The notes under the pieces were generated by a model. It was not told the DNA's origin. It did not search any database and saw only the letters and a program-made list of their open reading frames with translations. Shown one piece after another: positions 15,222 through 28,591 of a stretch of 36,930 bases of DNA. Where the stretch lies: positions 1-36,930 of the forward strand of contig CAZYCR010000003.1 of the NCBI GenBank assembly GCA_964645815.1. Direction: 5' to 3'. How positions within the stretch are numbered: the stretch's first letter is position 1; each line of letters opens with the position of its first letter. Source of the DNA: an uncultured Gammaproteobacteria bacterium. GTDB taxonomy: Bacteria; Patescibacteriota; Patescibacteriia; UBA9934. Made by a program: the position numbers and the translations under genes.

Positions 15222-15240
15222 AAGAAGAAAAATTTAAACA

Positions 15241-15270
15241 AAAAGCAGGCTAGAAAAAGCCTGTTTTTTT
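15241..15270 (+). terminator. intrinsic terminator after hisS
   Basis: aaaagcaggc-tagaaaaa-gcctgttttttt hairpin followed by a T-run. Confidence 0.75.
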
Positions 15271-15298
15271 GTTTTAGGCCAAATTTGACTATTTTATA

Positions 15299-15327
15299 TT
15301 GACAAAAGCGAAATTTTATGCTAGATT
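15299..15327 (+). promoter_or_regulatory. promoter of GC-rich orphan A (TTGACA-N17-TAGATT)
   Basis: Consensus -35 at 15299-15304, 17-nt spacer, -10 at 15322-15327. GGAGG sits at 15342-15346, 6 nt before the ATG at 15353. Confidence 0.55.
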
Positions 15328-15352
15328 ATTACGTCAAAGTTGGAGGTTTGGC

Positions 15353-15700
15353 ATGTCCGAAGAAAACCGGGCAGATCTCGAGATCTGCTTCAAGAACTAC
15401 GTCTACGCCCTGCGGCCCACGCCGTACGGCAAGCTGAAGAAGCTGTTCCGGAGGGAGTCGGTGCACGGGTCAACCGTGTGCTGGATTTTCTCCGACGACA
15501 AGGAGTTCCCGGCCAGTGGCACGGTCGAGAAGCTGGAGGAGATTCGAACCTTCAGCCGCGAGCTCGGACTGAAGATCGTCGGTTCCGAGTTCCACGTACC
15601 GTGCTCGAGTGGCTGGTACGAGAAGGACCTCGACGAGGCTGATTACCGTATCTTCCGCTTCCCGCCCACGCGCGAGAAGTTTGAGGAAGCGCTAGACTGA
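15353..15700 (+). CDS. GC-rich orphan protein A (115 aa), unknown function
   Basis: ATG preceded by GGAGG. 96 of 115 codons end in G or C by hand count. Two 60-nt lines give 34/60 and 38/60 G+C. The track start at 15299 is a TTG lying inside the promoter. I recognise no family. Confidence 0.65.
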   Translation: MSEENRADLEICFKNYVYALRPTPYGKLKKLFRRESVHGSTVCWIFSDDKEFPASGTVEKLEEIRTFSRELGLKIVGSEFHVPCSSGWYEKDLDEADYRIFRFPPTREKFEEALD

Positions 15701-15748
15701 CCGCCCCAGAAAAGACCAACTCGGTCTTTCCGGGGCGGTCTTTTCTTA
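15701..15748 (+). terminator. strong intrinsic terminator after orphan A
   Basis: ccgccccagaaaagacc-aactc-ggtctttccggggcgg long GC-rich stem followed by tcttttctt. Confidence 0.75.
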
Positions 15749-15751
15749 TAC

Positions 15752-15780
15752 TTGACTAAAGTCAGCAAATTTGATACATT
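15752..15780 (+). promoter_or_regulatory. promoter of rpsU (TTGACT-N17-TACATT)
   Basis: -35 at 15752-15757, 17-nt spacer, -10 at 15775-15780. Purine-rich SD aaaagggg lies ahead of the ATG at 15807. Confidence 0.5.
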
Positions 15781-15806
15781 CTAGCCACCTAGAAAAGGGG
15801 AAACAC

Positions 15807-16055
15807 ATGTCTACAATCGATATCAAACGGAAGAAAGGTGAAAGTTTTGAAGCAATGTTTCGACGTTTTAGTCGACGCTTGCAGCAAAGCGGAAAAGTGC
15901 TCAGTTTACGATCTCGACGGACTCATTTGAGAAAGCCGAATCATAATAAAGTGCACGAAAGCGCCTTACGACGTTTGGAGATGGGGGCCAAGCGAGAGTA
16001 TCTGCTTCGATCAGGTAAACTGATTGAAGAAGATCGTCGCAGCCACCGCAGATAG
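15807..16055 (+). CDS. rpsU: 30S ribosomal protein bS21
   Basis: 82-aa, very basic. FEAMFRRFSRRLQQSGKV..RSRRTHLRKP fits the bS21 pattern. The track start at 15771 is a non-ATG upstream extension. Confidence 0.85.
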   Translation: MSTIDIKRKKGESFEAMFRRFSRRLQQSGKVLSLRSRRTHLRKPNHNKVHESALRRLEMGAKREYLLRSGKLIEEDRRSHRR

Positions 16056-16065
16056 TGTTTCTTTG

Positions 16066-16146
16066 GAAAACAGGCCCTTAATGCAATCCTGAACGAAGTG
16101 AAGGATCTCTCAAATCGGAGTTGCGTCAAGGGTCTGTTTTCTTTTT
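16066..16146 (+). terminator. long-stem terminator-like hairpin in the rpsU 3' region, carrying the dispersed repeat in its loop
   Basis: gaaaacaggccc (16066-16077) pairs with gggtctgttttc (16130-16141) over 12 bp including one G-U. A ttttt run follows. The 52-nt loop contains the inner hairpin ATCCT/AGGAT. Confidence 0.5.
16086..16108 (+). repeat. dispersed 23-nt hairpin repeat, copy 1 (atcctgaacgaagtgaaggatct)
   Basis: Exact reverse-complement match to 26558-26580. Confidence 0.9.
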
Positions 16147-16180
16147 GATAAAAGCAAAGGCCGACCCAGAGGGGTCGGCC
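16147..16180 (-). terminator. intrinsic terminator of GC-rich orphan B
   Basis: On the - strand: ggccgacccc-tctg-ggtcggcc stem, then tttgcttttatc. Confidence 0.7.
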
Positions 16181-16193
16181 CGTAGAACGAGAA

Positions 16194-16559
16194 CTAGATG
16201 GTGATGACGATGGAGACATCGCTGACGTCGCAATCCGTACATGAGTTGAACTTGGGATCGTCGAAGGTCTTCATGTGCTTCTGGCGATCTTCGGGACGAT
16301 CATGATCTTCGGGGCCGACGAACTGCTCGCGTGTCACGACGCAGAGGCAGTCGGAGCAGCCGAGCAGAAACTCGTCGGCCACATCCCAAACCTGCTTGGC
16401 GTCGATGGGCTCCTGGTTGATGACGATTGCCTCGTACAGACGGAGCTCGGAGTCGAGCGCCCCCACGACCGACAGCGCTCGGTTGCCGTTACAGGAGCTC
16501 ATGATCTTGAGGACGACCTTGCCGTCGTGGATCACGCTGATCACTGCTGCGATGCCCAT
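16194..16559 (-). CDS. GC-rich orphan protein B (121 aa), unknown function
   Basis: ATG at 16559 preceded by AGGAGAGG. Codons end overwhelmingly in G or C. The track start at 16607 lies upstream of the SD and is rejected. I recognise no family; the protein has several Cys residues (SSCNG, GCSDCLC, NSCTDCD). Confidence 0.65.
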   Translation of the reverse strand: MGIAAVISVIHDGKVVLKIMSSCNGNRALSVVGALDSELRLYEAIVINQEPIDAKQVWDVADEFLLGCSDCLCVVTREQFVGPEDHDRPEDRQKHMKTFDDPKFNSCTDCDVSDVSIVITI

Positions 16560-16586
16560 GTTCCTCTCCTGGTTAATGGACAGGGG

Positions 16587-16615
16587 AAGGTAACATATTT
16601 TTGGCAATCTGTCAA
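16587..16615 (-). promoter_or_regulatory. promoter of orphan B (TTGACA-N17-TACCTT on the - strand)
   Basis: tgtcaa at 16610-16615 and aaggta at 16587-16592 on the + strand, separated by 17 nt. Confidence 0.45.
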
Positions 16616-16674
16616 TGCTAGCTTACCAGAAGTATTTTTTGCCTTTTTGACCCGACTAGGGCAAAATTAAACGT

Positions 16675-17013
16675 ATGAAACATCTAGATAAGTATTTGAA
16701 TCAAGTTATTCACGTCACGATTGATCGACCAAAAGGGAGTAAACATCCTAAGTTTGATTTTGAATATCCAATTAACTACGGCTATATGCCAGATACTATT
16801 TCTGGTGATGGAAAAGAGATCGATGCGTATATTCTGGGAGTAGAAGAGCCATTAAAACAATTTACAGGGAAGTGCATTGCCATTATCGAACGCCACGATG
16901 ACGATGACCCGAAATTAGTGTTAGCCCCAGAAGGGATGATGTTTTCTGATGAAGAAATTATCAAAGCAGTGCATTTTCAGGAACAATGGTTTGATTCATA
17001 TATAAAACGTTAA
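16675..17013 (+). CDS. short inorganic-pyrophosphatase-like protein
   Basis: YPINYGYMPDT, GDGKEIDAYILG and DDDDPKLVLAP parallel the family I PPase blocks YPxNYGFIPxT, DGDPLDVLVL and DExDxKIIAV. At 112 aa it is shorter than canonical PPase. Confidence 0.6.
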   Translation: MKHLDKYLNQVIHVTIDRPKGSKHPKFDFEYPINYGYMPDTISGDGKEIDAYILGVEEPLKQFTGKCIAIIERHDDDDPKLVLAPEGMMFSDEEIIKAVHFQEQWFDSYIKR

Positions 17014-17040
17014 AAACCGCCCTCGGGCGGTTTTTGCTTT
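17012..17040 (+). terminator. intrinsic terminator after the PPase-like gene
   Basis: aaaaaccgcc-ctcg-ggcggttttt, then gctttt. Confidence 0.8.
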
Positions 17041-17077
17041 TCTCAGCCAATTATATAACCTCGTTAAGCTATGAAAT

Positions 17078-17106
17078 TTGACAACTTTTCCATAGATTGA
17101 TATTAT
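17078..17106 (+). promoter_or_regulatory. promoter of the type I R-M operon (TTGACA-N17-TATTAT)
   Basis: -35 at 17078-17083, 17-nt spacer, -10 at 17101-17106. The ATG at 17118 is 11 nt after the -10. The promoter is flanked and overlapped by CTATGAAA repeats. Confidence 0.55.
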
Positions 17107-17117
17107 CTCGATAACCT

Positions 17118-18818
17118 ATGAAAAATGTCAATACCTACAAAATCAGTGACGTTGCCGAGATGTTCGGAATTCACGAAGACACTCTTCGTAATTGGGAAAA
17201 AGAGGGTCTCATTACCCCTATTCGTATTGGGACGCGTGGAGACCGCCGCTATACCCAAGAACATATAGATCAGATCGTTGAGAAGAAACTGGCGAAGATC
17301 GTCCGTCGGCTTGATGAAGAGCATGAGCTTGAGGAAAAAATGACTCTTGCTCAGCTAAAACAGTTCCTCTGGAAATCGGCCGACATTCTCCGTGGCCGCG
17401 TAGACGGATCGCAATATAAGGAATACATCTTTGCTCTCCTCTTCTATAAGCGGATGAGTGACATTTGGGATGAAGAGTACCGAACTATTCTGGATCAGTT
17501 TCATGATGAGGCGATCGCGAAGGCGGATTACAATCACCGCTTCAATGTGCCGGAAGATTGTCGTTGGGGTGTCATCGCCGACCAGTCTGAAAATATAGGC
17601 GCGAAACTCAATGAAATTTTCGATAAACTCACAAATGCAAATAGTCCGAAGCTGGACAAGATTTTCAACAAACTCGACTTCGCGGACAAGGATCGTTTTC
17701 CGAACGAAACTATGCAACGTTTGGTGAATCACTTCTCCAAGCATAATTTTGCAAATCAATATATCAGCTCGGATGTTCTTGGTGATGCGTATGAATATCT
17801 GATTGAGCAATTCGCAGCGGGTGCGGGAAAAAAAGGCGGTGAATTTTATACTCCACGCGAAATTGAGCGTGTTATCATGCATATTCTTGATCCTCACGAA
17901 AAGGATCATATTTACGACCCGACTGTTGGTTCCGGTGGATTTTTGCTTGAGGCGTACCATTATGTGCGCGATAAGTATGATGAATCAAAAGCACGTTCGC
18001 TCTACCTCTACGGACAGGAGTTCAACATGAGCACGTTTACAATTGCGCGTATTAACATGTTCCTTCACGGTCTCGACAGTGCAGATATTCGTATGGGCGA
18101 TACGCTTGCGGATCCAAAATTCCTCACGACAGAAAACCAATTGCAAACGTTCGATATCTGCGTTAGCAATTTCCCCTATTCTGTGAAGGAATGGGCGCAA
18201 GATACATTTGCCGCAAATAGGTTTGGTCGACTGGATGGTTACGAGATGCCGCCAGAGAAAAATGGCGATTATGCATTTATTCTGCATATCATTAAGTCGC
18301 TAAACGAAAATGGAAAAGCTGGGGTCGTCGTACCACACGGAGTCTTGTTTAAAGGTGACGCGCCTGGGCGGATTCGAAAACAGATTCTAACGAACGATCT
18401 CATAGAAGCTGTGATCGCGCTGCCTTCTAAGCTTTTTTACGGAGTGGGCATTCCTGTTGCCGTGCTCATCCTTAATAAAAACAAACCGGAAGTTCGCAAG
18501 AATAAGGTGATGATTATTGACGCGGAAAAGGATTATCAAGAAGGTAAAAAGCAAAACCGTCTCCGCATCAAAGATATCGAAAAAATCAGCACGGCGTTTC
18601 ATGACTTCAAAGACATTGAACGCTATGCTCGCGTCGTAGATTTGAAGGAAATTGCTGAGAACGATTACAACTTGAACATCCGCCGCTATGTCGACACGAG
18701 CGAACAAGAAGAAACAATTGATGTGAGTGCTGAGTGGAAAAAATTGCAAAAGATTGAAAAGGAGGCAAAAGAAATCGATGAGAAAGTTGAGAATTTTTTG
18801 AAGGGTCTGAAGTATTAA
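17118..18818 (+). CDS. hsdM: type I restriction-modification methyltransferase subunit HsdM with N-terminal MerR-type HTH extension
   Basis: The HsdM N-terminal block LWKSADILRG starts just after Met75. AdoMet motif DPTVGSGGFL. Catalytic motif NFPY (an NPPF/Y variant). The first ~70 aa, YKISDVAEMFGIHEDTLRNWEKEGLITPIR..GDRRYT, form a MerR-like HTH. Confidence 0.9.
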   Translation: MKNVNTYKISDVAEMFGIHEDTLRNWEKEGLITPIRIGTRGDRRYTQEHIDQIVEKKLAKIVRRLDEEHELEEKMTLAQLKQFLWKSADILRGRVDGSQYKEYIFALLFYKRMSDIWDEEYRTILDQFHDEAIAKADYNHRFNVPEDCRWGVIADQSENIGAKLNEIFDKLTNANSPKLDKIFNKLDFADKDRFPNETMQRLVNHFSKHNFANQYISSDVLGDAYEYLIEQFAAGAGKKGGEFYTPREIERVIMHILDPHEKDHIYDPTVGSGGFLLEAYHYVRDKYDESKARSLYLYGQEFNMSTFTIARINMFLHGLDSADIRMGDTLADPKFLTTENQLQTFDICVSNFPYSVKEWAQDTFAANRFGRLDGYEMPPEKNGDYAFILHIIKSLNENGKAGVVVPHGVLFKGDAPGRIRKQILTNDLIEAVIALPSKLFYGVGIPVAVLILNKNKPEVRKNKVMIIDAEKDYQEGKKQNRLRIKDIEKISTAFHDFKDIERYARVVDLKEIAENDYNLNIRRYVDTSEQEETIDVSAEWKKLQKIEKEAKEIDEKVENFLKGLKY

Positions 18819-18822
18819 ATTT

Positions 18823-19536
18823 ATGAAAGACAAATTAATCAAAGCATCAAAAGTACTAGCCAAGGTTGTCTTTGTTTCGGTAGGAGTAATTATGTTCTAC
18901 TCTGGAGTTTCTTTTTTAATCAAAACACTAAATTTAACTATTTCGACTCTTATCCTGGAATACATACAAACGCTAGTATGGCCTAGTGTTATTTTCGTTT
19001 TAATATTTACATTCAAAACCAATTTTTCCGGACTACTTGATAGGCTGGCGGAGTTTTCTCTGCCCGGTGGAGTTACTGGGAAAATAAACCCGCAGGCACA
19101 ACAGCAAGATACAAAACCCGAGGACTCTATAGATAAAAGCGCAGATTTTACTCAACTATTGACTGAAAAAGAAGAACAACTCGCTGAATTTGTAACTTCA
19201 AATGTGGGTCTTGAACAAAAAATAAGTACACTAGAAATTGAGTTAGACTTCGAGAGAATTTATAACATAATTTTTGCTAGCCAAATTGATCTATTGTTAA
19301 AGATGAATAATTTCGACAGTGTAGAGTTTTCTTATGTGGATGACCACTTCAACAAAGCACAACAATCCGCAATGAGTATGTTGAACGGTTGGAATACGAA
19401 ACAATACATTAACTTTCTCATTAATAATGGTCTTATTGAATATCCTGTTGGAACCAATCTTTTAAAGATTGCACTTAAGGGCAAGGTCTTTCTGAGTTAT
19501 CTTTCAGTTCGTAACTATAAAAAGTACGGAATATAA
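18823..19536 (+). CDS. two-TM membrane protein with coiled-coil linker and C-terminal globular domain, unknown function, embedded between hsdM and hsdS
   Basis: 237-aa ORF starting 4 nt after the hsdM stop. Hydrophobic helices lie at about aa 12-35 and 40-65. A Gln/Glu-rich segment follows, then a ~100-aa C-terminal domain. AT-richer than hsdM. Confidence 0.7.
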   Translation: MKDKLIKASKVLAKVVFVSVGVIMFYSGVSFLIKTLNLTISTLILEYIQTLVWPSVIFVLIFTFKTNFSGLLDRLAEFSLPGGVTGKINPQAQQQDTKPEDSIDKSADFTQLLTEKEEQLAEFVTSNVGLEQKISTLEIELDFERIYNIIFASQIDLLLKMNNFDSVEFSYVDDHFNKAQQSAMSMLNGWNTKQYINFLINNGLIEYPVGTNLLKIALKGKVFLSYLSVRNYKKYGI

Positions 19537-19539
19537 GTT

Positions 19540-20688
19540 ATGAGCGTAAAAACAGTACAACAAAATATTCCGAGTGGATGGAACGTCAAACTCCTGGGCA
19601 AAGTGATTGTTGAAAAAGATAAATCTATACTGAAAGTCGGTGATGCGGACAATAGCAGTGTCTATCCATTCTTTACTAGTGGTGAAAAAGTTTTAAGTCA
19701 TAGTAAGGCTCTGGTGTCTGGTCGAAATATTTATGTGGCCACAGGCGGTGTAGCCAATATTAAATTTTTTGATGGTGAAGCAAGTTATTCAACAGATACC
19801 TATTGTTTTACTTCAAAAGAAGATACAGAATTTATTTACTATGCCCTCCTCAATAATTTAAGAGATATAAACAAACATTTGTTTTCTGGTAGCGGCTTAA
19901 GGCACTTACAAAAAAAGGACTTCAAAAAGAAGGAAATACTTCTCCCGCCAATTACAGAGCAACAAAAGATCGCAGAGATTCTGAGCTCAGTTGATGACGA
20001 CATTCGTGCGACACAAGATGTTATCGATCAAAATGAGCAAATCAAAAAAGGTTTGATGCAGGATTTGTTTACAAAAGGAATTGGTCATACGAAGTTTAAG
20101 GACAGCGAGCTTGGAAAGATTCCAGAAGAGTGGCAGATGGTTCATCTTGAAGATGTGGCCCATTTTACTAATGGAAAAGGTCACGAAAAACATATTTCAA
20201 AGGGTGGGAAATATATCGTTGTCAACTCAAAATTCATCTCATCTAATGGAAATGTGATTAAATGTTCAGATAAGGCATTTTTACCACTTTCCAAAGAAGA
20301 GGTTGTTATGGTGATGAGCGATGTTCCGAATGGTCAGGCTTTGGCAAAATGCTTCTTTATCGATGAAGACGATACTTACACTTTAAATCAACGAATCTGT
20401 TCATTCCGTTTTAAAACTGGCCTACCACGTTTTTATTATCATTTACTTAATAGAAATGCTTACTTTTTGAAGTTTAATAATGGAACCGGGCAGACTAACT
20501 TGCGGAAACAGCAAGTGCTAGATTGCCCGATTGCGCTTCCCCCAGAAGGCGAACAAAGAGAAATTGTTGATTTTCTTGATGCATTGGAACACAAATTGGT
20601 GTCGTGGCAAGAAAAGAAGATCGTACTAGAAAATCTTAAGGATGGCCTAATGCAAGATTTATTGTCGGGTGAGGTGAGAGTTGAGTAA
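19540..20688 (+). CDS. hsdS: type I restriction-modification specificity subunit HsdS
   Basis: Two target-recognition domains, each followed by a conserved helical spacer: LPPITEQQKIAEILSSVDDDI and LPPEGEQREIVDFLDALEHKL. Confidence 0.88.
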   Translation: MSVKTVQQNIPSGWNVKLLGKVIVEKDKSILKVGDADNSSVYPFFTSGEKVLSHSKALVSGRNIYVATGGVANIKFFDGEASYSTDTYCFTSKEDTEFIYYALLNNLRDINKHLFSGSGLRHLQKKDFKKKEILLPPITEQQKIAEILSSVDDDIRATQDVIDQNEQIKKGLMQDLFTKGIGHTKFKDSELGKIPEEWQMVHLEDVAHFTNGKGHEKHISKGGKYIVVNSKFISSNGNVIKCSDKAFLPLSKEEVVMVMSDVPNGQALAKCFFIDEDDTYTLNQRICSFRFKTGLPRFYYHLLNRNAYFLKFNNGTGQTNLRKQQVLDCPIALPPEGEQREIVDFLDALEHKLVSWQEKKIVLENLKDGLMQDLLSGEVRVE

Positions 20689-20692
20689 GTAT

Positions 20693-21691
20693 ATGGCCAG
20701 AGGCACATACCAGAGAACTAAGTTAGCCAATCGATCGACTCATGCTTTTATTTCTTCGCTTAATGCCTTCAATAATGCAAGTGATGAATACCGAGTTGAA
20801 GCCGCTTTGTTCTTGATGGTCAATGCCGTCGAACTGCTTTCAAAAGCCCTTGTATTAAAACATGGAGGAAAAATTTACGAGAAAGGTACAAAGGAGAGAA
20901 CGATATCTGCAGAAGCGAGTATTTGGCTATTGTTTAATCAGTATCACAAGATTGATGAGCTTGAACATGGAGCTTTGCAACAACTAATCTCATTGAGAAA
21001 CGAGGCATCACACAATATTTTACCGAGTGTCAAGAATGATGTGCTGCACTATTTAATGTTCTCTGCGTTTAAAGTCTACCGTCGACTTATCAATGACAAT
21101 TTTCGTTCTCACAACAGAATTTTTAAAAAAAGCTTCTTGTCTATTTCAACAGATGAAAACACTACTTACGCCGATAGTGTTGAGGGGTTGTTGAGATCAA
21201 GTAAAAAGTCCGAATCCCAAAGACGGCTTCTCTACTTACTGGAAAGAGGTGTGTCGTATAAAGGAGACACATACATTACACAGGATGCTTTTGAGAAAAA
21301 TTTTAGAAAACAAAAGAACAAAAGGTTGATTAACAGAAGTAAATTAGGCAAATTTTTATCCGAGGCAGATCTTCTGAAGGTTGTATTTATTCAGGCACCT
21401 AAAAATCACACCATCAACATTGATATTGCTAAGGGAATAGGTTCTCAGAAAGAAGCCCTTACCGTCTTTACCAGGCGTACTGATATCAATAAAGATTACC
21501 CGTATATCCTGACGACGTTAGCTGAAAAGTTGGGAAAAGGAAGAAATGTAACCTTACAAGCAATTAAGCAGTTGAGCGTCAAAGGTGACAAGGAGCTACA
21601 TCAGGAAGTAAAAACTGGTAAACAAAGTTCCACACATAAATATTCTGATGCCGCCTTCCAGAAATTGAAAAATCATTTCGACAATCTATGA
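20693..21691 (+). CDS. HEPN-motif protein (putative RNase) embedded between hsdS and hsdR
   Basis: Rx4H motif in LISLRNEASHN after an all-helical N-terminal half. The ATG at 20693 is 4 nt after the hsdS stop; the TTG at 20681 is an alternative start. The stop overlaps the hsdR start (ATGA). Confidence 0.7.
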   Translation: MARGTYQRTKLANRSTHAFISSLNAFNNASDEYRVEAALFLMVNAVELLSKALVLKHGGKIYEKGTKERTISAEASIWLLFNQYHKIDELEHGALQQLISLRNEASHNILPSVKNDVLHYLMFSAFKVYRRLINDNFRSHNRIFKKSFLSISTDENTTYADSVEGLLRSSKKSESQRRLLYLLERGVSYKGDTYITQDAFEKNFRKQKNKRLINRSKLGKFLSEADLLKVVFIQAPKNHTINIDIAKGIGSQKEALTVFTRRTDINKDYPYILTTLAEKLGKGRNVTLQAIKQLSVKGDKELHQEVKTGKQSSTHKYSDAAFQKLKNHFDNL

Positions 21692-24606
21692 AATTCAACG
21701 AACAAGTAACAATTGAAAACCACATCATCAAATTCCTAAAAAAGGAACTTGGGTTTGAGTTTGTGAAACCGGAGGAGATGAAAGGGTTGCGCGAGTACGA
21801 GACGGAATATCTTGTGACATCATATCTACGAGACGCGATAGCGAAGATAAATGGCATTTCCGATGAAACGATCCTCGATTCGATCATTCGCGAGATTAAA
21901 AAAGTCGATACGAACCAGGGTTTTTTGGAGTTGATCCGCGGCGGAGTTGATTTAGTTGACGGCAAGACGCAAAAAACGCACACCTATCAAGTGATTGACT
22001 TTCAGAATCCGGAAAACAATCATTTTGTTGTTACTAACCAGTTTTATTTTGAAGGAGATACAGAAAACATTCGTCCGGATGTTTTGGTATTTGTAAATGG
22101 TATTCCGGTTGTGGATATTGAAGCAAAGTCGGCGACGGCTGCGCTCTCTGTCGATTACACAAAAGGCATCGGTCAGATTAAGCGTTATGAACGTGTTGCA
22201 AAAAGGCTGTTTATTCCAAACTGTTTTAACATCGCAACCGATGGCGTTCAGACAGTTTATGGAGCAACATTTGCACCGGAGCAATATTTCTTAACTTGGA
22301 AGGATGAAGAACTCGATAAAAAGTATGGCGAAGGAGCGGTAGAAGTTTCACTGGAGAATCTGCTTAGACCAGAAAATCTATTGGACATCATTGCGAACTT
22401 TATTGTTTTTGAACAAACAAAAAATGGTCTGGTTAAAAAGGTTGCTTATTATCAACAAAAACGAGCCACGAATAAAATTGTTGAACGAGTTGTAAAACGA
22501 GATGGAAAACGCGGACTTATATGGCACACACAAGGATCCGGAAAGACGCTGACCATGTTTTTCACGGCATGGAAACTTCGTTTTCATCAAGAATTGGCTA
22601 GTCCAAAAGTGTTTATTTTGGTTGATCGTATTGATTTGGACGATCAGGTGTATGACGAGTTCACCAATCATGGTGGGAAAAACATTATTCGAGTTACTTC
22701 CCGCAAACATCTTGAAGAAGTAATCGGCTCGGATGAGCGTGGAATTTTTATTTCAACAATTCAAAAATTCTCCGAGTTGGGGGCTGGTATTAAAAACCTC
22801 AAAGAGAATATTATCGTTCTTTCTGACGAAGCTCATCGTGGAGATGAAGGTGTTGCAGGGATTAACTTGCGCGACTCTCTCGGCAATGCTTTCCTTTTTG
22901 GCTTTACCGGAACACCGATTGATAAGACGACTCTAAATACACACAGAAATTATGGTGAGGCTGGTGAGCGGTATTTGGACTATTATTCGATCGAACAAGC
23001 TATTAAGGACGGAACCACATTGCCCGTCACCTACGAAGCACGTCTTTCAAAGTTTTTCATTGATGAAGAGCGTGCTGACGAACAGTTCGATGAGTTGACA
23101 ACCGAATTGGACGACAAGCAAAAAGAAGAATTACTGAAACGGCACACGCGAAAATCTCAGCTTACAAACTTGGATGCGCGGGTTGATGCGATTGTTCATG
23201 ATATTGTTGAGCACTTTAAAGCCTATATAGAACCGAATGGATTCAAGGCGCAGGTTGTTTGTAACGGAAAGGAAGCGGTAGTGATGTACAAAAAACATTT
23301 CGATAAGTTACTCGGAAGCGAGGCGACGGCTGTTGTGTTTTCTTCCGGGGACCCTAACAGCACGCCAGAAGAACAGAAAAAGTACGAAACAGCAAAGAAG
23401 GAACGCGATGAAATTATTCGCAACTTTAAGAACCCAGCACATCCTTTGAAGTTTATTATCGTAACAGACATGCTTTTGACGGGCTTCGATGCCCCGATTG
23501 AGCAGGTTATGTATTTGGATAAGCCTCTGCGCGACCATACATTACTCCAGGCCATTGCTCGCACGAACCGAGTTTATCCCAATAAGGTAGCTGGAAAGAT
23601 TATCGACTACTATGGAATCACAAAGAATCTTTATGATGCGCTTGATTTTAGCGAAGATATCGTTGATTCGGCGATGGTAGATATCGATGTCATGAAGGAA
23701 CGATTTGTTGAAGTTTTGCACCAGAACATGGATTTATTCGGTAAAGTGAATATCGAAGATCCTTCCATGGAAAATCTGCGTCACAATATCAAGATTTTTA
23801 TTGACAACGAAGATAAGCAGCAATTCTTTAAGAAAAAGTACAACCAACTGAAATCGCTCTACGAATTTCTTGCTCCGGATCCATTCTTGAAAGAATATAT
23901 TCGTCACTTTGAATGGCTCACAAGCTTTTACATTGCATTTCAAAAGGAATTTTTCTCTACTCCAGATGCACACTTGCTTGCGGGTTACGGCGAGAAAGTT
24001 AAAGAGATTATCCAAGACAATGTTGATTATGCGGGGATTACAAAGACATTCCGTGAGCTTAGGATTGATGATGTGGCGGCTATGAATAAGCTGGACGAAA
24101 TGGACGATGAAGAAAAGGCTCTAAATCTTGAAAAAATGTTAAAGCAAGAAATTTCTGAGCACATCGACCTTAACCCTGCCTTCCAGACCTTTAGCGAGCG
24201 TCTTCAAAAAATCCGGGAGGATTTTGAACAGAAACAAATGGACTTAGCGGAGCGCATCAAACACTATCAGGAGTTAATGAAGGATATTCAAGATGCTCGT
24301 AGCATCGCGGAAGAAAAAGGATACACGCTCTCAGAATATGGGCTTTACATGGTCAGTAAGGAATATTTGCCAGATGTTAGTGAGGAATTAATGCATGAGT
24401 TCATTAAAGAAATGGCGCAAAAAATTAAGGACGTTCTTGATAAAGGTTGGAAGGAGTCATCGAAGTACGATTTCTTTATCAAGGAAATCAAGCGAACGTT
24501 CCAGGAGCTTATTCTGAAGGATTACCGCGGTAAAATTACTATCGACATTGGAGAATTCCACGGCTATGTGAACCGACTTGTCGACATGGTTATTAAATAC
24601 TTCTAG
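21688..24606 (+). CDS. hsdR: type I restriction enzyme endonuclease/translocase subunit HsdR
   Basis: N-terminal PD-(D/E)XK block DVLVFVNGIPVVDIEAK. SF2 helicase motifs HTQGSGKTLTM, LSDEAHRG, FGFTGTP, QAIARTNR. Long helical C-terminus. Confidence 0.92.
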   Translation: MKFNEQVTIENHIIKFLKKELGFEFVKPEEMKGLREYETEYLVTSYLRDAIAKINGISDETILDSIIREIKKVDTNQGFLELIRGGVDLVDGKTQKTHTYQVIDFQNPENNHFVVTNQFYFEGDTENIRPDVLVFVNGIPVVDIEAKSATAALSVDYTKGIGQIKRYERVAKRLFIPNCFNIATDGVQTVYGATFAPEQYFLTWKDEELDKKYGEGAVEVSLENLLRPENLLDIIANFIVFEQTKNGLVKKVAYYQQKRATNKIVERVVKRDGKRGLIWHTQGSGKTLTMFFTAWKLRFHQELASPKVFILVDRIDLDDQVYDEFTNHGGKNIIRVTSRKHLEEVIGSDERGIFISTIQKFSELGAGIKNLKENIIVLSDEAHRGDEGVAGINLRDSLGNAFLFGFTGTPIDKTTLNTHRNYGEAGERYLDYYSIEQAIKDGTTLPVTYEARLSKFFIDEERADEQFDELTTELDDKQKEELLKRHTRKSQLTNLDARVDAIVHDIVEHFKAYIEPNGFKAQVVCNGKEAVVMYKKHFDKLLGSEATAVVFSSGDPNSTPEEQKKYETAKKERDEIIRNFKNPAHPLKFIIVTDMLLTGFDAPIEQVMYLDKPLRDHTLLQAIARTNRVYPNKVAGKIIDYYGITKNLYDALDFSEDIVDSAMVDIDVMKERFVEVLHQNMDLFGKVNIEDPSMENLRHNIKIFIDNEDKQQFFKKKYNQLKSLYEFLAPDPFLKEYIRHFEWLTSFYIAFQKEFFSTPDAHLLAGYGEKVKEIIQDNVDYAGITKTFRELRIDDVAAMNKLDEMDDEEKALNLEKMLKQEISEHIDLNPAFQTFSERLQKIREDFEQKQMDLAERIKHYQELMKDIQDARSIAEEKGYTLSEYGLYMVSKEYLPDVSEELMHEFIKEMAQKIKDVLDKGWKESSKYDFFIKEIKRTFQELILKDYRGKITIDIGEFHGYVNRLVDMVIKYF

Positions 24607-24609
24607 CCT

Positions 24610-25170
24610 ATGAAAAAGGAGGTGCAAATTGAAAATAGTACGCTCCAATACTCGATAAAAAAGAGTAAGAGGGCGAAGCGAATGAGAATCGCAGTTTATT
24701 GCGATTGTTCGATTGTTGTTACATCTCCTCAATCGATTTCAGAAACCCAAATTCAAAAATTTATTCGACTGAAATCGGATTGGATTGCAAAGAAGATTGC
24801 ATTCTTCTCCTCTTTGCAGATACACCCTGATATCGCTATTCAGTCAGAACAACATTACTTACAACATAAAGAGAAGGCGTTGAAGACAATCTCTCAGAGA
24901 GTTCAGAAGCTGAGTGAAAAGTATCAATTTGAACCTAATCAAATTCGAGTAAAAATGTTAAAAACTAAATGGGGTAGCTGTTCTGGGAAGAAGAATCTCA
25001 ATTTCAATTACAAGTTGATTTTTCTTAATCAAGATTTGCAAGATTACGTTATCATCCATGAACTATGTCATTTAAAAGAGTTGAATCATACAAAGAAATT
25101 TTGGGCACACGTTGCTTCATTTATACCTGAATATAAGAAGATAAAAAATAGACTACAAATTTTTAACTAA
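24610..25170 (+). CDS. DUF45/COG1451 (YgjP-like) zinc-dependent hydrolase
   Basis: TKWGSCS and HELCHLKELNH (HExxH plus a downstream His). Starts 3 nt after the hsdR stop. Confidence 0.8.
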   Translation: MKKEVQIENSTLQYSIKKSKRAKRMRIAVYCDCSIVVTSPQSISETQIQKFIRLKSDWIAKKIAFFSSLQIHPDIAIQSEQHYLQHKEKALKTISQRVQKLSEKYQFEPNQIRVKMLKTKWGSCSGKKNLNFNYKLIFLNQDLQDYVIIHELCHLKELNHTKKFWAHVASFIPEYKKIKNRLQIFN

Positions 25171-25171
25171 T

Positions 25172-25918
25172 ATGCCTTTTTATAATCCACACCGAGGAGC
25201 ATCCTTCAACTACGGCGGGAAGCAATGGAAACTTAGCCGGGGGAAGATTGATCTCTTTCTCCGCTGCCCGCGGTGTTTTTATTTGGACAACAAACTCGGC
25301 ACCAAACGACCTACGTGCCCACCGTATAATATTAATACCGCCGTAGACTCGCTCCTCAAACAAGAATTTGATGGCTATCGGGCCCGGGGGATGAAACACC
25401 CTTTGCAGAAAAAATATAAAATCGACGCCATCCCGGCTAAGCATGAGCAAATCGATGATTGGCGCGAGAATTTTAAGGGTGTTCAGTATTTACACCAGCC
25501 AACCGGATTATTGGTTACCGGCGCTATTGATGATTTGTGGCAGAGTAAAAAAGGTGAGTATATTGTGGTCGATTATAAGGCCACGGCCAAGTCTGATCCT
25601 GTAACTGAGCTGAATGATGATTGGCACGAAGGTTACAAACGTCAAATGGAAATTTATCAATGGTTATTGCGTCAAAATGGTCTTAAGGTTTCCAACACCG
25701 GTTATTTTGTTTATTGCACCGGTCGGCCGGACGAAAAAGCTTTTGACGGTAAAGTGGAATTTGACGTGCATTTGATTGCTTACACCGGTGACGACTCATG
25801 GGTCGAAAAGACTCTAGCTCAGATTAAAAAGACCCTGAGTAGCAAAAAAATACCTAAAGCTGCCGCAGATTGTGAGTATTGTCAGTATCGAGCCGCAGCC
25901 GCTCGGCACGAAAAATAA
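25172..25918 (+). CDS. Cas4/RecB-like PD-(D/E)XK nuclease with four terminal cysteines
   Basis: CPRCFY near the N-terminus, GAIDDLW, VVDYKA, QMEIYQ, and C-terminal CEYCQY. Starts 1 nt after the DUF45 stop. Confidence 0.7.
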   Translation: MPFYNPHRGASFNYGGKQWKLSRGKIDLFLRCPRCFYLDNKLGTKRPTCPPYNINTAVDSLLKQEFDGYRARGMKHPLQKKYKIDAIPAKHEQIDDWRENFKGVQYLHQPTGLLVTGAIDDLWQSKKGEYIVVDYKATAKSDPVTELNDDWHEGYKRQMEIYQWLLRQNGLKVSNTGYFVYCTGRPDEKAFDGKVEFDVHLIAYTGDDSWVEKTLAQIKKTLSSKKIPKAAADCEYCQYRAAAARHEK

Positions 25919-26860: not shown

Positions 26861-28588
26861 GTGAGAAATATTGAGCGAACCTGGCTTAAAAAGTTTTTAC
26901 GTGGAGCCGTTTTTAGTGCGGTAATTTTTGCGTTGTGGCAAACGCCAACGTTTTTTGTAGAAGCTCAAACCGCTCTTGAGCGAACCGGTGCAGCGGCTAG
27001 TTTTCAAGAAGTTGAATTGGCAACAGTTATCGGTCGAATCATTGCTGTCTTCTTGGGAGTCTTGGGCGTTGTCTTTTTGGGCCTAGTCATCTATGCCGGC
27101 GTTTTGTTCATGACTGCTGCCGGTCGCGATGATCGAGTAGAAAAAGCTAAGAAAGTATTAACCAGCGCGGTCATCGGACTTATTATCACCATGAGCGCTT
27201 ATTCCATTACAGCTTTTGTAGTGCAAAGAATCACTGGCCAAGGTCTTTTTGGCACTAGCGGCGGCGGTGGCACTAGCGGCGGAGTTTCGATTGAACCTTT
27301 CTCCGGCTCTTTGGGCCGAGGAATCCGTGACCACTATCCGGCTCGCAACGCCACTAACGTTGCCCGCAACACCAAAATTTTCGTGACCTTCTCGGAGCAA
27401 ATGAATATTGAATCATTTATCGACGGTTATGACGTTTCTGGTTCACCGCTCGATCTTTCGGACGACACACCAGCTTCTGGTCTCAACGACCGTTTGATCA
27501 AAATTTACCCAACCGCTCAAGGCGAATCGGCCGCTTTAACTGCAACTGATGTCAGCGTGACTTTCACCGATGACTTGAGAACTTTTGTTTTCACTCCACC
27601 AATCCTGGGATCGGCTACGACCAATGTTCAGTACACTGTTGCACTAGATGATCGTCTGGAAAGCGCAACCGGTAATTCTATACTCAATGACGGTGGCTAT
27701 ATTTGGTCTTTCACTGTGGGAACTGTTTTGGATACTGAACCGCCAACTGTCACTCGAGTTACACCGCTCGCTGGCGGTACTTATGATCGTAACATCACAG
27801 TGCAGTTAACTTTTTCCGAAGCGCTTGATCCAACTTCGGCCAGCGGTCGATACAATCCGGCCAATGGCGAAAATTTTGAAAGTATTACTGTAGCCGGAAC
27901 TAGCAGCGGCGCAGTTTCGGGTGAATATTTAATTAGCAATGAATACAAAACAATTACTTTCCAGCCATCGGCAGCCTGCGGCATAAATTCTTGCGGCAAT
28001 ACTTTGTATTGTTTGAGCTCGGCCGACAGTATGACAGTCACTGCTTTTGCTGCCACCAATGATTTGTTCCCGTACAACGGAATTGTTGACGTTAATGGTA
28101 ATGCTTTGGACGGCGACGCCGACGGTCAGGCTGGCGGAAATTATAGTTGGGGCTTTACCACCACTGGCGACGTTCGTTTGAGCGGACCGGAAATTACTTT
28201 GATTACACCTGACATTGAGTCAAGCAACATCAATCTCGATCAGGATGTGATGATTACTTTTGATTCAGAATTAATGAGCTCCACTGTTAGCACGGAAAAT
28301 TTTGTACTGACCTCAAAACCGGAGCATGAGATGTGGTTCCGCACCAGCCAAGAATCAACGGCCGACAGTACTACAGTCACAGTCAAACATGGCGTTTTCT
28401 TGGAATCAACGGCCGACCAGACTTATTTGTACGGCATGAGCGTTGGGGAAGGTGTGCAAGATATTTATCAAAACTGTTTCCGACCGGCCAAAGGTCCGGG
28501 TAAAAATGGAGGTAGTTGTGGTACCAGTGCCAGTGCACCGTTTTGTTGCAATGGCGTGCCGCAATCAACCGAGTGCCAACTTTTTTAA
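26861..28588 (+). CDS. secreted/surface protein with N-terminal VirB2/TrbC-like pilin module, Gly-rich linker and Ig-like domains
   Basis: 575-aa ORF with a GTG start. It has a signal-like N-terminus. Two hydrophobic helices flank MTAAGRDDRVEKAKKVL. A GGGGTSGG linker follows, then beta-rich repeats of the SbsA/Big type and a Cys-rich C-terminus. Confidence 0.8.
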   Translation: MRNIERTWLKKFLRGAVFSAVIFALWQTPTFFVEAQTALERTGAAASFQEVELATVIGRIIAVFLGVLGVVFLGLVIYAGVLFMTAAGRDDRVEKAKKVLTSAVIGLIITMSAYSITAFVVQRITGQGLFGTSGGGGTSGGVSIEPFSGSLGRGIRDHYPARNATNVARNTKIFVTFSEQMNIESFIDGYDVSGSPLDLSDDTPASGLNDRLIKIYPTAQGESAALTATDVSVTFTDDLRTFVFTPPILGSATTNVQYTVALDDRLESATGNSILNDGGYIWSFTVGTVLDTEPPTVTRVTPLAGGTYDRNITVQLTFSEALDPTSASGRYNPANGENFESITVAGTSSGAVSGEYLISNEYKTITFQPSAACGINSCGNTLYCLSSADSMTVTAFAATNDLFPYNGIVDVNGNALDGDADGQAGGNYSWGFTTTGDVRLSGPEITLITPDIESSNINLDQDVMITFDSELMSSTVSTENFVLTSKPEHEMWFRTSQESTADSTTVTVKHGVFLESTADQTYLYGMSVGEGVQDIYQNCFRPAKGPGKNGGSCGTSASAPFCCNGVPQSTECQLF

Positions 28589-28591
28589 AAC

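What the first reader, a model, noticed from the sequence alone, without database searches (positions are those of the whole stretch)
17078..25918. Seven-gene, translationally coupled type I R-M operon carrying four non-canonical passengers
One promoter (17078-17106) is followed by hsdM, a 2-TM protein, hsdS, a HEPN-motif protein, hsdR, a DUF45 zinc hydrolase and a Cas4-like nuclease. The junctions are +4, +3, +4, -4 (ATGA overlap), +3 and +1 nt. I saw no internal terminator.

The three canonical subunits are therefore interleaved with a membrane protein, a putative RNase, a metallohydrolase and a second nuclease. That packing argues for co-regulation and probably physical or functional coupling. 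In other words, it may be a composite defence module (restriction plus a second-line or abortive effector) rather than a plain R-M system.

The block lies between a PPase-like gene with a strong terminator and yqeY, next to the GC-rich cassettes, so the neighbourhood looks accessory.
Basis: partly seen in the sequence, partly recalled or inferred. Interest (0 to 1): 0.75.

Follow-up and report, generated by a model that had tools for sequence, protein, structure and literature searches.

The report
Restriction operon carrying embedded defence genes
This is a six-gene type I restriction-modification island in a Patescibacteria (CPR) genome that carries two embedded defence-type genes, a known kind of arrangement; the seventh gene, a Cas4-like nuclease, is an ordinary host gene that sits next to it.

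Summary
Seven co-directional ORFs (17118-25918) have junctions of +4, +3, +4 (or -8 from a TTG start), -4, +3 and +1 nt. They follow a strong sigma-70-like promoter, and every domain call was right.

- HsdM, HsdS, HsdR and the DUF45/YgjP metallopeptidase form a constant backbone. It recurs in related and distant operons, in Klebsiella plasmids and in the published E. coli RRDM island. DUF45 is therefore a usual accessory, not a passenger.
- Two slots hold exchangeable cargo. The hsdS-hsdR slot holds a DUF3644 HEPN protein (PADLOC PDC-S19) with invariant Ex3K and Rx4H motifs; a 44%-identical homolog sits alone in a ribosomal-protein operon.
- The hsdM-hsdS slot holds an unannotated two-TM protein with a winged-helix-like C-terminus. 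Its family lies in that slot in 12 of about 19 contexts examined but also occurs outside R-M loci.
- Sister operons carry other cargo in the same slots: ThsB-like TIR plus PDC-M50A, PDC-S32, Shedu, RhuM.
- The Cas4-like gene is a conserved Patescibacteria gene. It has at least 8000 homologs, no R-M genes nearby in eight other contexts, host-like GC, and lies next to the same PPase in the nearest relative.

Overall this is a new member of a known kind. The two-TM family is the one part worth following up.

The parts
17011..17036 (+). Hairpin terminator after the PPase gene. It marks the left edge of the inserted block.
   Evidence: Stem of 11 pairs followed by a T-run, detected on both strands.
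17069..17106 (+). Operon promoter: -35 TTGACA at 17078-17083 and extended -10 TATTAT at 17101-17106, with a conserved upstream motif CTATGAAATTTGACAA.
   Evidence: Matches 11 of 12 consensus positions with a TG extension. The 16-nt stretch across the -35 is identical in the sister operon L004. A second shared motif, GATA(A/T)CCTATGAAA, overlaps the hsdM start codon at 17110-17123. Its role as an operator is inferred.
17118..18818 (+). hsdM, the type I methyltransferase subunit, fused to an N-terminal MerR-type HTH (aa 7-53).
   Evidence: N6_Mtase 4.6e-109, HsdM_N 3.4e-25, MerR_1 4.9e-13. TIGR00497 scores above its cut-off. Motif I is DPTVGSGGF; motif IV is NFPY, as in L001. HsdM is 67% identical in L001 and L004, both also MerR-fused.
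18823..19536 (+). Cargo in slot 1 (hsdM-hsdS): a 237-aa protein of an unannotated family, with two TM helices, a disordered linker, a coiled coil and a winged-helix-like C-terminal domain.
   Evidence: No Pfam, PADLOC or PHROG family; only sub-threshold HTH_45 and Sso10a hits. AF2 model: pLDDT about 88 for aa 130-230, with MarR/ArsR-like Foldseek hits at E 0.05-0.3. The family lies between hsdM and hsdS in 12 distinct contexts. The N-terminal module is shared with TM-DUF4145 proteins.
19540..20688 (+). hsdS, the specificity subunit, with two target-recognition domains.
   Evidence: Methylase_S 4.6e-42 in two stretches. PADLOC Specificity_I 1.6e-53.
20693..21691 (+). Cargo in slot 2 (hsdS-hsdR): a DUF3644 HEPN protein with a C-terminal winged-helix-like domain, a predicted RNase. 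The alternative TTG start is at 20681.
   Evidence: DUF3644 2.4e-15. PADLOC PDC-S19 2.8e-26. E47x3K51 and R102-N103-x3-H107 are invariant or nearly so across 25 homologs. AF2 pLDDT 80; the top 11 Foldseek hits are all HEPN proteins (2hsb prob 1.0; HepT; SO_3166).
21688..24606 (+). hsdR, the restriction/translocase subunit.
   Evidence: TIGR00348 537 bits against a cut-off of 285. HSDR_N, SWI2_SNF2, T1R_D3 and T1RH-like_C domains. GSGKT, DEAH and PD...ExK motifs are present.
24610..25170 (+). DUF45/YgjP-like zinc metallopeptidase (GenBank names: 'SprT family' or 'M48 family'). It is the regular accessory downstream of hsdR and the last gene of the island.
   Evidence: YgjP-like 1.4e-44 with an HELCH motif. 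It follows hsdR in L001, L004, L006-8 and L009-12 and in a Klebsiella plasmid; in a Priestia plasmid it lies next to hsdR on the opposite strand. GC is 0.333 against 0.454 for the next gene.
25172..25918 (+). Host gene, not part of the island: a conserved Patescibacteria PD-(D/E)XK / Cas4-like nuclease with four Cys. It is probably reached by read-through from the operon.
   Evidence: At least 8000 homologs, the best 120 at 65-80% identity. Eight other contexts have no R-M genes within 10 kb. The same PPase (67% identical) lies directly beside it in the nearest relative. TIGR00372 cas4 scores 39 bits, below its cut-off of 65.

Best explanation
The block is a horizontally acquired six-gene type I restriction-modification island, about 17040-25170, in a Patescibacteria (CPR) chromosome.

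Backbone. It consists of HsdM (fused to a MerR-type HTH), HsdS, HsdR and a DUF45/YgjP zinc metallopeptidase.

Cargo slots. Two junctions of the backbone act as slots.
- The hsdS-hsdR slot holds a DUF3644 HEPN protein with a winged-helix tail. It is most likely a self-contained RNase-type defence or abortive-infection effector.
- The hsdM-hsdS slot holds a membrane-anchored winged-helix-like protein from an unannotated family. It is most likely another embedded defence or accessory gene.

Expression. All six genes are transcribed from one sigma-70-like promoter. That promoter may be autoregulated by the HTH on HsdM. The close spacing allows translational coupling.

Insertion site. The island sits between two host genes, PPase and a Cas4-like nuclease, that are adjacent (in the opposite order) in the nearest relative. 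The Cas4-like gene and yqeY are host genes that now lie directly downstream and are probably read through.

Shown here: gene content, motifs, synteny and cassette exchange. Inferred: RNase activity, defence function, autoregulation and co-transcription.
For: Backbone constancy:
- L001 and L004 have HsdM 67%, HsdR 62% and DUF45 48-49% identical, in the same order.
- Distant operons (HsdM 36-37%, HsdR 28-29%) also end in YgjP-like.
- Klebsiella plasmids carry hsdM-hsdS-(2 cargo genes)-hsdR-SprT/DUF45.
- The published RRDM island is RptR-HsdM-HsdS-DarT-DarG-HsdR-M48 (PMC12255303).

Cassette exchange:
- Window: M|g2|S|DUF3644|R.
- L004: M|g2|S|PDC-S32|R.
- L001: M|PDC-M50A + ThsB-like TIR + 193 aa|S|DUF3644|R.
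- L036: M|RhuM|g2|S|Shedu|R.
- L108: M|DUF3800|g2|S|DUF6602|R.

Autonomy of g4: a 44%-identical homolog sits alone between rplB and rpsS, and another lies next to a recombinase and McrB.

HEPN identity of g4: Pfam and PADLOC hits, invariant motifs and fold. The DUF3644-bearing HEC-08 gave phage defence that depended on the motif histidine (bioRxiv 10.1101/2024.01.29.577857).

g7 as a host gene.

Core neighbourhood.
Against: - No recombinase or flanking direct repeat of 9 nt or more marks the island ends.
- GC evidence is mixed: hsdM has GC 0.44 and the host PPase 0.366.
- PPase and the Cas4-like gene are adjacent in the relative but in the opposite order, so a simple insertion between them does not fully explain the layout.
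- The g2 family occupies the same slot in 12 contexts, across very different HsdM and HsdR lineages. That could indicate functional coupling to the methyltransferase core rather than autonomy.
- No function was tested experimentally.
Confidence: 0.7

Rival explanations
1. One reading: all seven genes form one integrated composite defence machine, in which the membrane protein, HEPN protein, DUF45 and Cas4-like nuclease are physically or functionally coupled to HsdMSR.
For: Uniform tight junctions, a single strong promoter and no convincing internal terminator.
Against: - g7 is a conserved host gene never seen with R-M genes elsewhere.
- g2 and g4 are swapped independently among sister operons.
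- Both occur outside R-M loci.
- Tight gaps are common throughout this genome.
Confidence: 0.07
2. g4 works like PrrC: a latent HEPN RNase held inactive by binding the HsdMSR complex, and released when a phage anti-restriction protein disables the enzyme.
For: It sits between hsdS and hsdR, exactly as prrC does in EcoprrI. Anantharaman et al. proposed this logic for HEPN families found in R-M operons, including the family that overlaps DUF3644 (PMC3710099). The start codons overlap (ATGA with hsdR).
Against: - g4 has no ABC-ATPase domain, which PrrC uses for regulation.
- A 44%-identical homolog lives alone in a ribosomal-protein operon with no R-M genes nearby, so the protein must be controllable without HsdMSR.
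- The DUF3644-bearing HEC-08 was identified embedded in Hma rather than in a type I R-M system.
Confidence: 0.2
3. g2 is a true accessory subunit of this class of type I enzymes rather than an autonomous defence gene. It might tether the M2S core to the membrane or modulate its DNA binding.
For: - It is always in the hsdM-hsdS slot: hsdM at -1 in 15 loci and hsdS at +1 in 14 loci.
- It is better conserved than the enzymes around it: 76/47/41% identity for g2, against 67/37/36% for HsdM and 62/29/29% for HsdR.
- It overlaps its neighbours in L009.
- It has a cytoplasmic winged-helix-like domain.
Against: - The closest sister operon, L001, keeps the same backbone without g2 and has TIR-type cargo in its place.
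- Full-length homologs sit in non-R-M contexts: L026, L030, L034, L107, L103.
- The wider family is large, 3163 clusters, with one distant member sampled outside R-M.
Confidence: 0.22
4. The Cas4-like nuclease has been functionally recruited to the island, for example to process restriction products, even though it is of host origin.
For: There is a 1-nt gap after DUF45 with no promoter or terminator between them. In L009-12 a different putative nuclease-family gene, DUF2779, follows DUF45.
Against: - Eight other contexts show housekeeping or repair neighbours: PPase, NrdR, SerRS and, twice, UDG.
- There is no sequence similarity to the DUF2779 gene.
- L001 and L004 have no such gene after DUF45.
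- g7 homologs are often tightly packed behind unrelated genes.
Confidence: 0.05

Closest known systems
RRDM island of enteropathogenic E. coli (RptR-HsdM-HsdS-DarT-DarG-HsdR-M48; PMC12255303)
   Same: Both are multi-ORF type I R-M islands driven from one upstream promoter. Both have an HTH regulator at the 5' end, a toxin-type defence module embedded between hsdS and hsdR, and a zinc metallopeptidase after hsdR that GenBank annotates as 'M48 family', a name also applied to homologs of g6.
   Different: Here the HTH is MerR-type and fused to HsdM, rather than a separate 9-kDa RptR. The embedded module is a single HEPN protein rather than DarTG. There is a second cargo gene between hsdM and hsdS. 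The host is a CPR bacterium. I did not check by sequence that the EPEC M48 protein is in the same family as g6.
PrrC / EcoprrI (anticodon nuclease embedded in a type Ic R-M system)
   Same: A HEPN-domain RNase gene lies between hsdS and hsdR of a type I operon (PMC3710099).
   Different: g4 lacks the ABC-ATPase domain and carries a winged-helix tail instead. Close homologs exist without any R-M genes.
DUF3644 / EC042_2821 HEPN family; PADLOC PDC-S19; HEC-08
   Same: g4 passes the Pfam DUF3644 threshold and hits PDC-S19 models. It has the Rx4H and Ex3K motifs and a HEPN fold matching SO_3166, the same PDB match reported for HEC-08. The family is described as fused to wHTH and occurring in R-M operons.
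   Different: [quoted passage not shown] PDC-S19 itself is an untested candidate.
'Guilt-by-embedding' cargo in type I R-M, BREX, DISARM and Hma loci (Payne et al. 2024), e.g. TgvAB in V. cholerae VPI-2
   Same: The cargo genes are co-oriented and nested between hsd genes. Sister operons carry known or candidate defence genes in the same slots: ThsB-like TIR, PDC-M50A, PDC-S32, Shedu, RhuM.
   Different: The g2 family matches no PADLOC v2 model, so it is not among the listed candidates.
TM-DUF4145 proteins
   Same: They share the N-terminal hydrophobic module (LEYIKVLIWP...PGG) with g2: hhalign probability 98.7%, E 4e-16 over 50 columns.
   Different: Their C-terminal domain is DUF4145 rather than the winged-helix-like domain. 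They have one hydrophobic helix rather than two. None of the loci with long flanks showed R-M genes in my HMM scan.

Membership tests
Type I restriction-modification system | An HsdM subunit with an N6-adenine methyltransferase domain and the SAM-binding and catalytic motifs | tested here: met
   TIGR00497 scores 266 bits against a cut-off of 243. N6_Mtase 4.6e-109. Motif I is DPTVGSGGF. Motif IV is NFPY, a variant of NPPY/F that is conserved in sister locus L001.
Type I restriction-modification system | An HsdS subunit with two target-recognition domains | tested here: met
   Methylase_S 4.6e-42 in two stretches. PADLOC Specificity_I hit covers aa 23-382.
Type I restriction-modification system | An HsdR subunit with a PD-(D/E)xK nuclease domain and SF2 ATPase motifs | tested here: met
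   TIGR00348 scores 537 bits against a cut-off of 285. GSGKT, DEAH and D...ExK motifs are present.
Type I restriction-modification system | Sequence-specific methylation and ATP-dependent restriction activity | not testable with these tools
   This needs methylome data or biochemistry.
HEPN superfamily (DUF3644 / EC042_2821 clade; PADLOC PDC-S19) | An Rx4-6H motif and an upstream Ex3[KR] motif | tested here: met
   R102 and N103 are invariant and H107 is conserved in at least 90% of 25 homologs. E47 and K51 are invariant.
HEPN superfamily (DUF3644 / EC042_2821 clade; PADLOC PDC-S19) | A profile match above the curated threshold | tested here: met
   Pfam DUF3644 scores 57.0 bits against a cut-off of 27.6. 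PDC-S19 2.8e-26.
HEPN superfamily (DUF3644 / EC042_2821 clade; PADLOC PDC-S19) | A helical-bundle HEPN fold | tested here: met
   AF2 model has pLDDT 80. The top 11 Foldseek PDB hits are all HEPN proteins (2hsb prob 1.00, TM-score 0.77 on the target). E-values are only 0.04-0.2.
HEPN superfamily (DUF3644 / EC042_2821 clade; PADLOC PDC-S19) | Metal-independent RNase activity or a defence phenotype | not testable with these tools
   Inferred from the family (PMC3710099; the HEC-08 result in bioRxiv 10.1101/2024.01.29.577857).
PrrC-type anticodon nuclease | An N-terminal ABC/Rad50-like NTPase domain fused to the HEPN domain | tested here: not met
   No ATPase domain appears in the Pfam, NCBIfam or PADLOC scans of g4.
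PrrC-type anticodon nuclease | The gene is embedded in hsdMSR and depends on it | tested here: inconclusive
   g4 is embedded between hsdS and hsdR here and in L001, but homologs occur without R-M genes. Dependence itself cannot be tested here.
YgjP-like / DUF45 zinc metallopeptidase | A profile match and an HExxH motif | tested here: met
   PF01863 scores 153 bits against a cut-off of 26. HELCH is present in the sequence.
YgjP-like / DUF45 zinc metallopeptidase | Recurrent position immediately downstream of hsdR | tested here: met
   It follows hsdR in L001, L004, L006-8 and L009-12. It does so in one Klebsiella plasmid inspected, out of 355 Klebsiella plasmid records with a g6 homolog. In a Priestia plasmid it lies next to hsdR on the opposite strand. 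It is not universal: two of four plasmid contexts inspected had no hsdR.
CRISPR-associated Cas4 | A score above the equivalog cut-off | tested here: not met
   TIGR00372 scores 39.3 bits against a cut-off of 65. Pfam Cas_Cas4 is only just above threshold, 26.2 against 22.7.
CRISPR-associated Cas4 | Adjacency to cas1/cas2 or a CRISPR array | tested here: not met
   No cas genes were found among the window's ORFs scanned against Pfam. None appeared among the called genes of L013-L015 or the flanking ORFs scanned in L017-L022.
MADS (methylation-associated defence system) | A MAD2 methyltransferase equivalog plus the other mad genes | tested here: not met
   NF047738 scores 88 bits against a cut-off of 720. 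The mad1, mad2 and mad5 hits are weaker than the type I models.
RRDM-type regulated type I island | An RptR repressor with TAGCTA direct repeats in the promoter | tested here: not met
   There is no separate small ORF upstream of hsdM; the HTH is MerR-type and fused to HsdM. The promoter region read contains no TAGCTA. Different conserved motifs are present instead.

The most novel reading that the evidence does not exclude
The g2 family (two TM helices plus a winged-helix-like domain, about 240 aa, with no database annotation) may be a previously unrecognised component adapted to the hsdM-hsdS junction of type I R-M operons. It could be a membrane-anchored DNA or anti-restriction sensor that triggers membrane damage when the methyltransferase core is attacked. 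Alternatively it could be a tether that places the enzyme at the membrane where foreign DNA enters. It shares a portable N-terminal membrane module with TM-DUF4145 (HEPN-like) proteins, which hints at a wider class of membrane-anchored effectors.
Probability: 0.25. Interest if true: 0.6.

Novelty: new member of a known kind. Interest (0 to 1): 0.35.

Why it matters
Type I R-M operons that carry embedded defence genes and a trailing metallopeptidase are already described, so the locus as a whole is not surprising.

Two things have some value:
- It extends the 'embedded cargo slot' picture to CPR/Patescibacteria. Three sister operons give a clean natural experiment of cassette exchange on a constant backbone.
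- It points to an unannotated membrane-anchored protein family that sits between hsdM and hsdS in a dozen independent contexts. That makes it a concrete new candidate for functional testing. The role of the ubiquitous DUF45 partner of HsdR also remains unknown.

Tried and rejected
- Rfam at gathering thresholds and tRNA scans of the whole window found nothing. A permissive Rfam scan of 15200-17120 gave only sub-threshold hits.
- No direct repeats of 9 nt or more link the two island junctions, so no att sites were identified.
- Foldseek on the g2 model gave no significant PDB match, only a consistent list of weak winged-helix hits.
- The DUF2779 gene that follows DUF45 in L009-12 shows no similarity to g7, so a recurring 'DUF45 plus Cas4-like' pair is not supported. 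The 278-aa slot-2 gene of L004 is unrelated to g4.
- The genome-contig scan with g7 returned only 7 loci, too few for statistics.
- My iterated HMM for g2 absorbed the TM-DUF4145 family through the shared N-terminal module and overstated full-length homology. I corrected this with Pfam and hhalign.
- Makarova et al. 2011, which I remember as noting a link between COG1451 and type I R-M, is not held in the library. Literature searches for DUF45 or COG1451 with restriction were uninformative. The DUF45-hsdR link therefore rests on the loci examined here and on PMC12255303.
- I considered MADS because of the mad1 and mad2 hits and rejected it on score.
- An alternative genetic code was not tested directly. 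Six of the seven genes end in TAA or TAG, and all backbone genes translate to full-length family matches under table 11.

Full report
**What is in the sequence**

- g1 17118-18818
- g2 18823-19536
- g3 19540-20688
- g4 20693-21691 (an in-frame TTG at 20681 is an alternative start)
- g5 21688-24606
- g6 24610-25170
- g7 25172-25918

The junctions are +4, +3, +4 (or -8), -4, +3 and +1 nt. The site at 17078-17106 (TTGACA, 17 nt, TG-extended TATTAT) is the best promoter-like match in the 11 kb scanned. It follows a strong hairpin at 17011-17036, and inside the block only weak terminator-like hits occur.

This genome is compact throughout. Six of 15 other co-directional gaps are also 4 nt or less. 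The packing is real, but on its own it is weak evidence for functional coupling.

**Gene identities**

- g1 is HsdM (TIGR00497 above its cut-off).
- g3 is HsdS.
- g5 is HsdR, with intact GSGKT, DEAH and PD...ExK motifs.
- g6 is a YgjP-like/DUF45 zinc metallopeptidase with an HELCH motif.
- g7 is a PD-(D/E)XK nuclease with four cysteines. It scores below the Cas4 equivalog cut-off.

g4 passes the Pfam DUF3644 threshold and hits PADLOC candidate PDC-S19. Across 25 homologs, E47x3K51 and R102-N103-x3-H107 are invariant or nearly so. These are the two signatures of catalytic HEPN domains described by Anantharaman et al. (PMC3710099). The AlphaFold model (pLDDT 80) finds HEPN proteins as its 11 best PDB matches. 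One of them is SO_3166, the match reported for the validated DUF3644 defence protein HEC-08. The C-terminal 70 residues fold as a winged-helix-like unit.

g2 has no family in Pfam, NCBIfam, PADLOC or PHROGs. It has two hydrophobic helices (aa 15-33 and 43-64), a disordered linker, a coiled coil and a confidently modelled C-terminal domain. That domain resembles MarR/ArsR-type winged helices only weakly.

**The host and the neighbourhood**

The window appears to be a whole 36.9-kb contig (searches give 36930 as the longest contig). Homologs of g2, g4 and g7 come from Patescibacteria/CPR.

Upstream of the block the annotated genes are housekeeping: ParA, ParB, RelA/SpoT, TopA, a Mur ligase, DprA, Pth, Der, LytR, signal peptidase, HisRS, S21 and a short PPase. 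Downstream are YqeY and two pilin-Ig surface proteins, one a giant ORF that runs off the contig end. The setting is therefore core chromosome, not an accessory region.

**The Cas4-like gene is a host gene**

- It has at least 8000 homologs; the best 120 listed are 65-80% identical and come from across Patescibacteria.
- In eight other distinct contexts (53-80% identity) there is no hsdM, hsdR or DUF45 within 10 kb. Most neighbours are housekeeping or repair genes: NrdR, SerRS, a HAD hydrolase, MgtC and, twice, UDG.
- In the nearest relative (80% identity) the gene lies directly beside a 112-aa PPase that is 67% identical to the one flanking the block on the other side in the window.
- Its GC (0.454) matches the host and differs sharply from DUF45 (0.333) one nucleotide upstream.

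The island therefore ends at 25170. It separates two genes that are adjacent, though in the opposite order, in the relative. Homologs of g7 are often packed tightly behind unrelated genes, so the 1-nt gap is not informative.

**DUF45 is a standard partner of HsdR**

A YgjP-like gene follows hsdR in every related operon recovered. These are L001 and L004 (HsdR 62% identical), and L006-8 and L009-12 (HsdR 28-29% identical).

In plasmids, 549 records carry a homolog, 355 of them from Klebsiella. The one Klebsiella plasmid inspected has hsdM-hsdS-(2 cargo genes)-hsdR-SprT/DUF45, with overlapping ends. A Priestia plasmid has it next to hsdR on the opposite strand. Two other plasmid contexts lack R-M genes.

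The published RRDM island of E. coli is RptR-HsdM-HsdS-DarT-DarG-HsdR-M48 (PMC12255303). 'M48 family metallopeptidase' is one of the GenBank names applied to homologs of g6. What DUF45 does is unknown. Proteolytic control of HsdR is a guess.

**Two cargo slots**

The three closest operons share the backbone but differ in cargo:
- Window: M | g2 | S | DUF3644 | R | DUF45
- L004: M | g2 (76%) | S | PDC-S32 | R | DUF45
- L001: M | PDC-M50A + ThsB-like TIR (8e-63) + 193 aa | S | DUF3644 (61%) | R | DUF45

More distant operons add other cargo:
- L036: M | RhuM | g2 | S | Shedu SduA | R
- L108: M | DUF3800 | g2 | S | DUF6602 | R

g2 and g4 are thus exchanged independently of each other. The slots often hold known or candidate defence genes. 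This is the 'embedding' pattern of Payne et al., exemplified by PrrC, TgvAB and DarTG.

**How autonomous is the cargo?**

g4 homologs occur alone. One, 44% identical, is inserted between rplB and rpsS of a Taylorbacteria ribosomal-protein operon. Another lies beside a serine recombinase, a ParB-methylase and McrB. This argues against an obligate PrrC-like dependence on HsdMSR. g4 also lacks PrrC's ATPase domain.

g2 is more intriguing. Among contexts with informative flanks, 12 have it between hsdM and hsdS. These span HsdM proteins of 517-814 aa and HsdR proteins with and without a DUF45 partner. Two more contexts are R-M-proximal: L035 and L105. At least six are unrelated to R-M: L026, L030, L034, L040, L107 and the distant L103.

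g2 is better conserved than the enzymes around it. An exhaustive profile search finds 3163 clusters. Many are single-TM proteins of about 210 aa that cover the whole C-terminal domain. The N-terminal module (aa 38-87) is homologous to the N-terminus of a separate TM-DUF4145 family.

My best reading is an embedded defence or accessory gene with a strong preference for the M-S slot. A true accessory-subunit role remains possible at about 0.2.

**Regulation (inferred)**

The MerR-type HTH fused to HsdM is shared by L001 and L004. The window and L004 share an identical 16-nt stretch across the -35, CTATGAAATTTGACAA, and a related motif over the start codon. This suggests autoregulation, analogous to RptR in RRDM. 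It was not tested.

**Verdict**

The locus is a six-gene type I R-M island with two embedded cargo genes and the usual DUF45 accessory. It lies directly upstream of a host nuclease gene. It is a new member of a described kind. The two-TM family is the only element with real discovery potential.

Noticed in passing
window 17118-17276 (HsdM aa 1-53) and 17069-17123: HsdM carries an N-terminal MerR-type HTH, also present in the sister operons L001 and L004. The window and L004 share an identical 16-nt stretch across the -35 (CTATGAAATTTGACAA) and a GATA(A/T)CCTATGAAA motif over the start codon. These may be autoregulatory operators.
   Followed up: partly
L002 10001-11023 and L003 5934-6956: A 44%-identical DUF3644 HEPN gene sits alone between rplB and rpsS inside the ribosomal-protein operon of a Taylorbacteria genome. 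That is a striking place for a predicted RNase toxin.
   Followed up: no
L045-L098 (alignment A4), e.g. L080 8001-8654: There is a family of proteins of about 220 aa with the same N-terminal hydrophobic module as g2 (LEYIKVLIWP...PGG), fused to a DUF4145 (HEPN-related) domain in which the motif arginine is replaced (CNAAIHG). In six loci an acyl-CoA dehydrogenase gene lies directly upstream.
   Followed up: partly
window 28589-36928 and 26861-28588: A giant ORF of at least 2780 aa runs off the contig end. It has an N-terminal T4SS_pilin-like segment, Big_5, TIG and DUF4215 domains. It abuts, with no gap, a 575-aa paralogous-looking pilin-Big_5 protein. Both are probably CPR surface proteins.
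   Followed up: partly
window 16194-16670: A GC-rich segment (0.556, against about 0.44 around it) has overlapping ORFs of 131 and 137 aa on opposite strands. Neither has any family hit, and there is no Rfam match. Its nature is unexplained.
   Followed up: partly
window 18168-18179 (HsdM aa 351-354): Catalytic motif IV of HsdM reads NFPY rather than the usual NPPY/F. The same variant occurs in L001, whereas the distant L006 and L009 enzymes have NPPF.
   Followed up: partly
window 16675-17013; L013 8762-9100: The PPase-like gene is only 112 aa, against a Pfam profile of 153 positions of which about 60 are matched. It is conserved at that length (67% identity) next to the Cas4-like gene in the nearest relative. 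It may be a truncated or repurposed pyrophosphatase-like protein.
   Followed up: no
L001 7285-8959: The hsdM-hsdS slot of the sister operon holds PDC-M50A (a 135-aa TM protein), a ThsB-like TIR protein and a 193-aa unknown. A large serine recombinase lies just upstream of hsdM, which suggests the island is mobile there.
   Followed up: partly
L015 2583-11406: In one Patescibacteria genome the g7 homolog lies among Fic, an N6/N4 methylase, a DEAD/ResIII helicase, an SMC/AAA_15 ATPase and a dnd-associated protein. That is a defence-island-like setting, unlike its other contexts.
   Followed up: no
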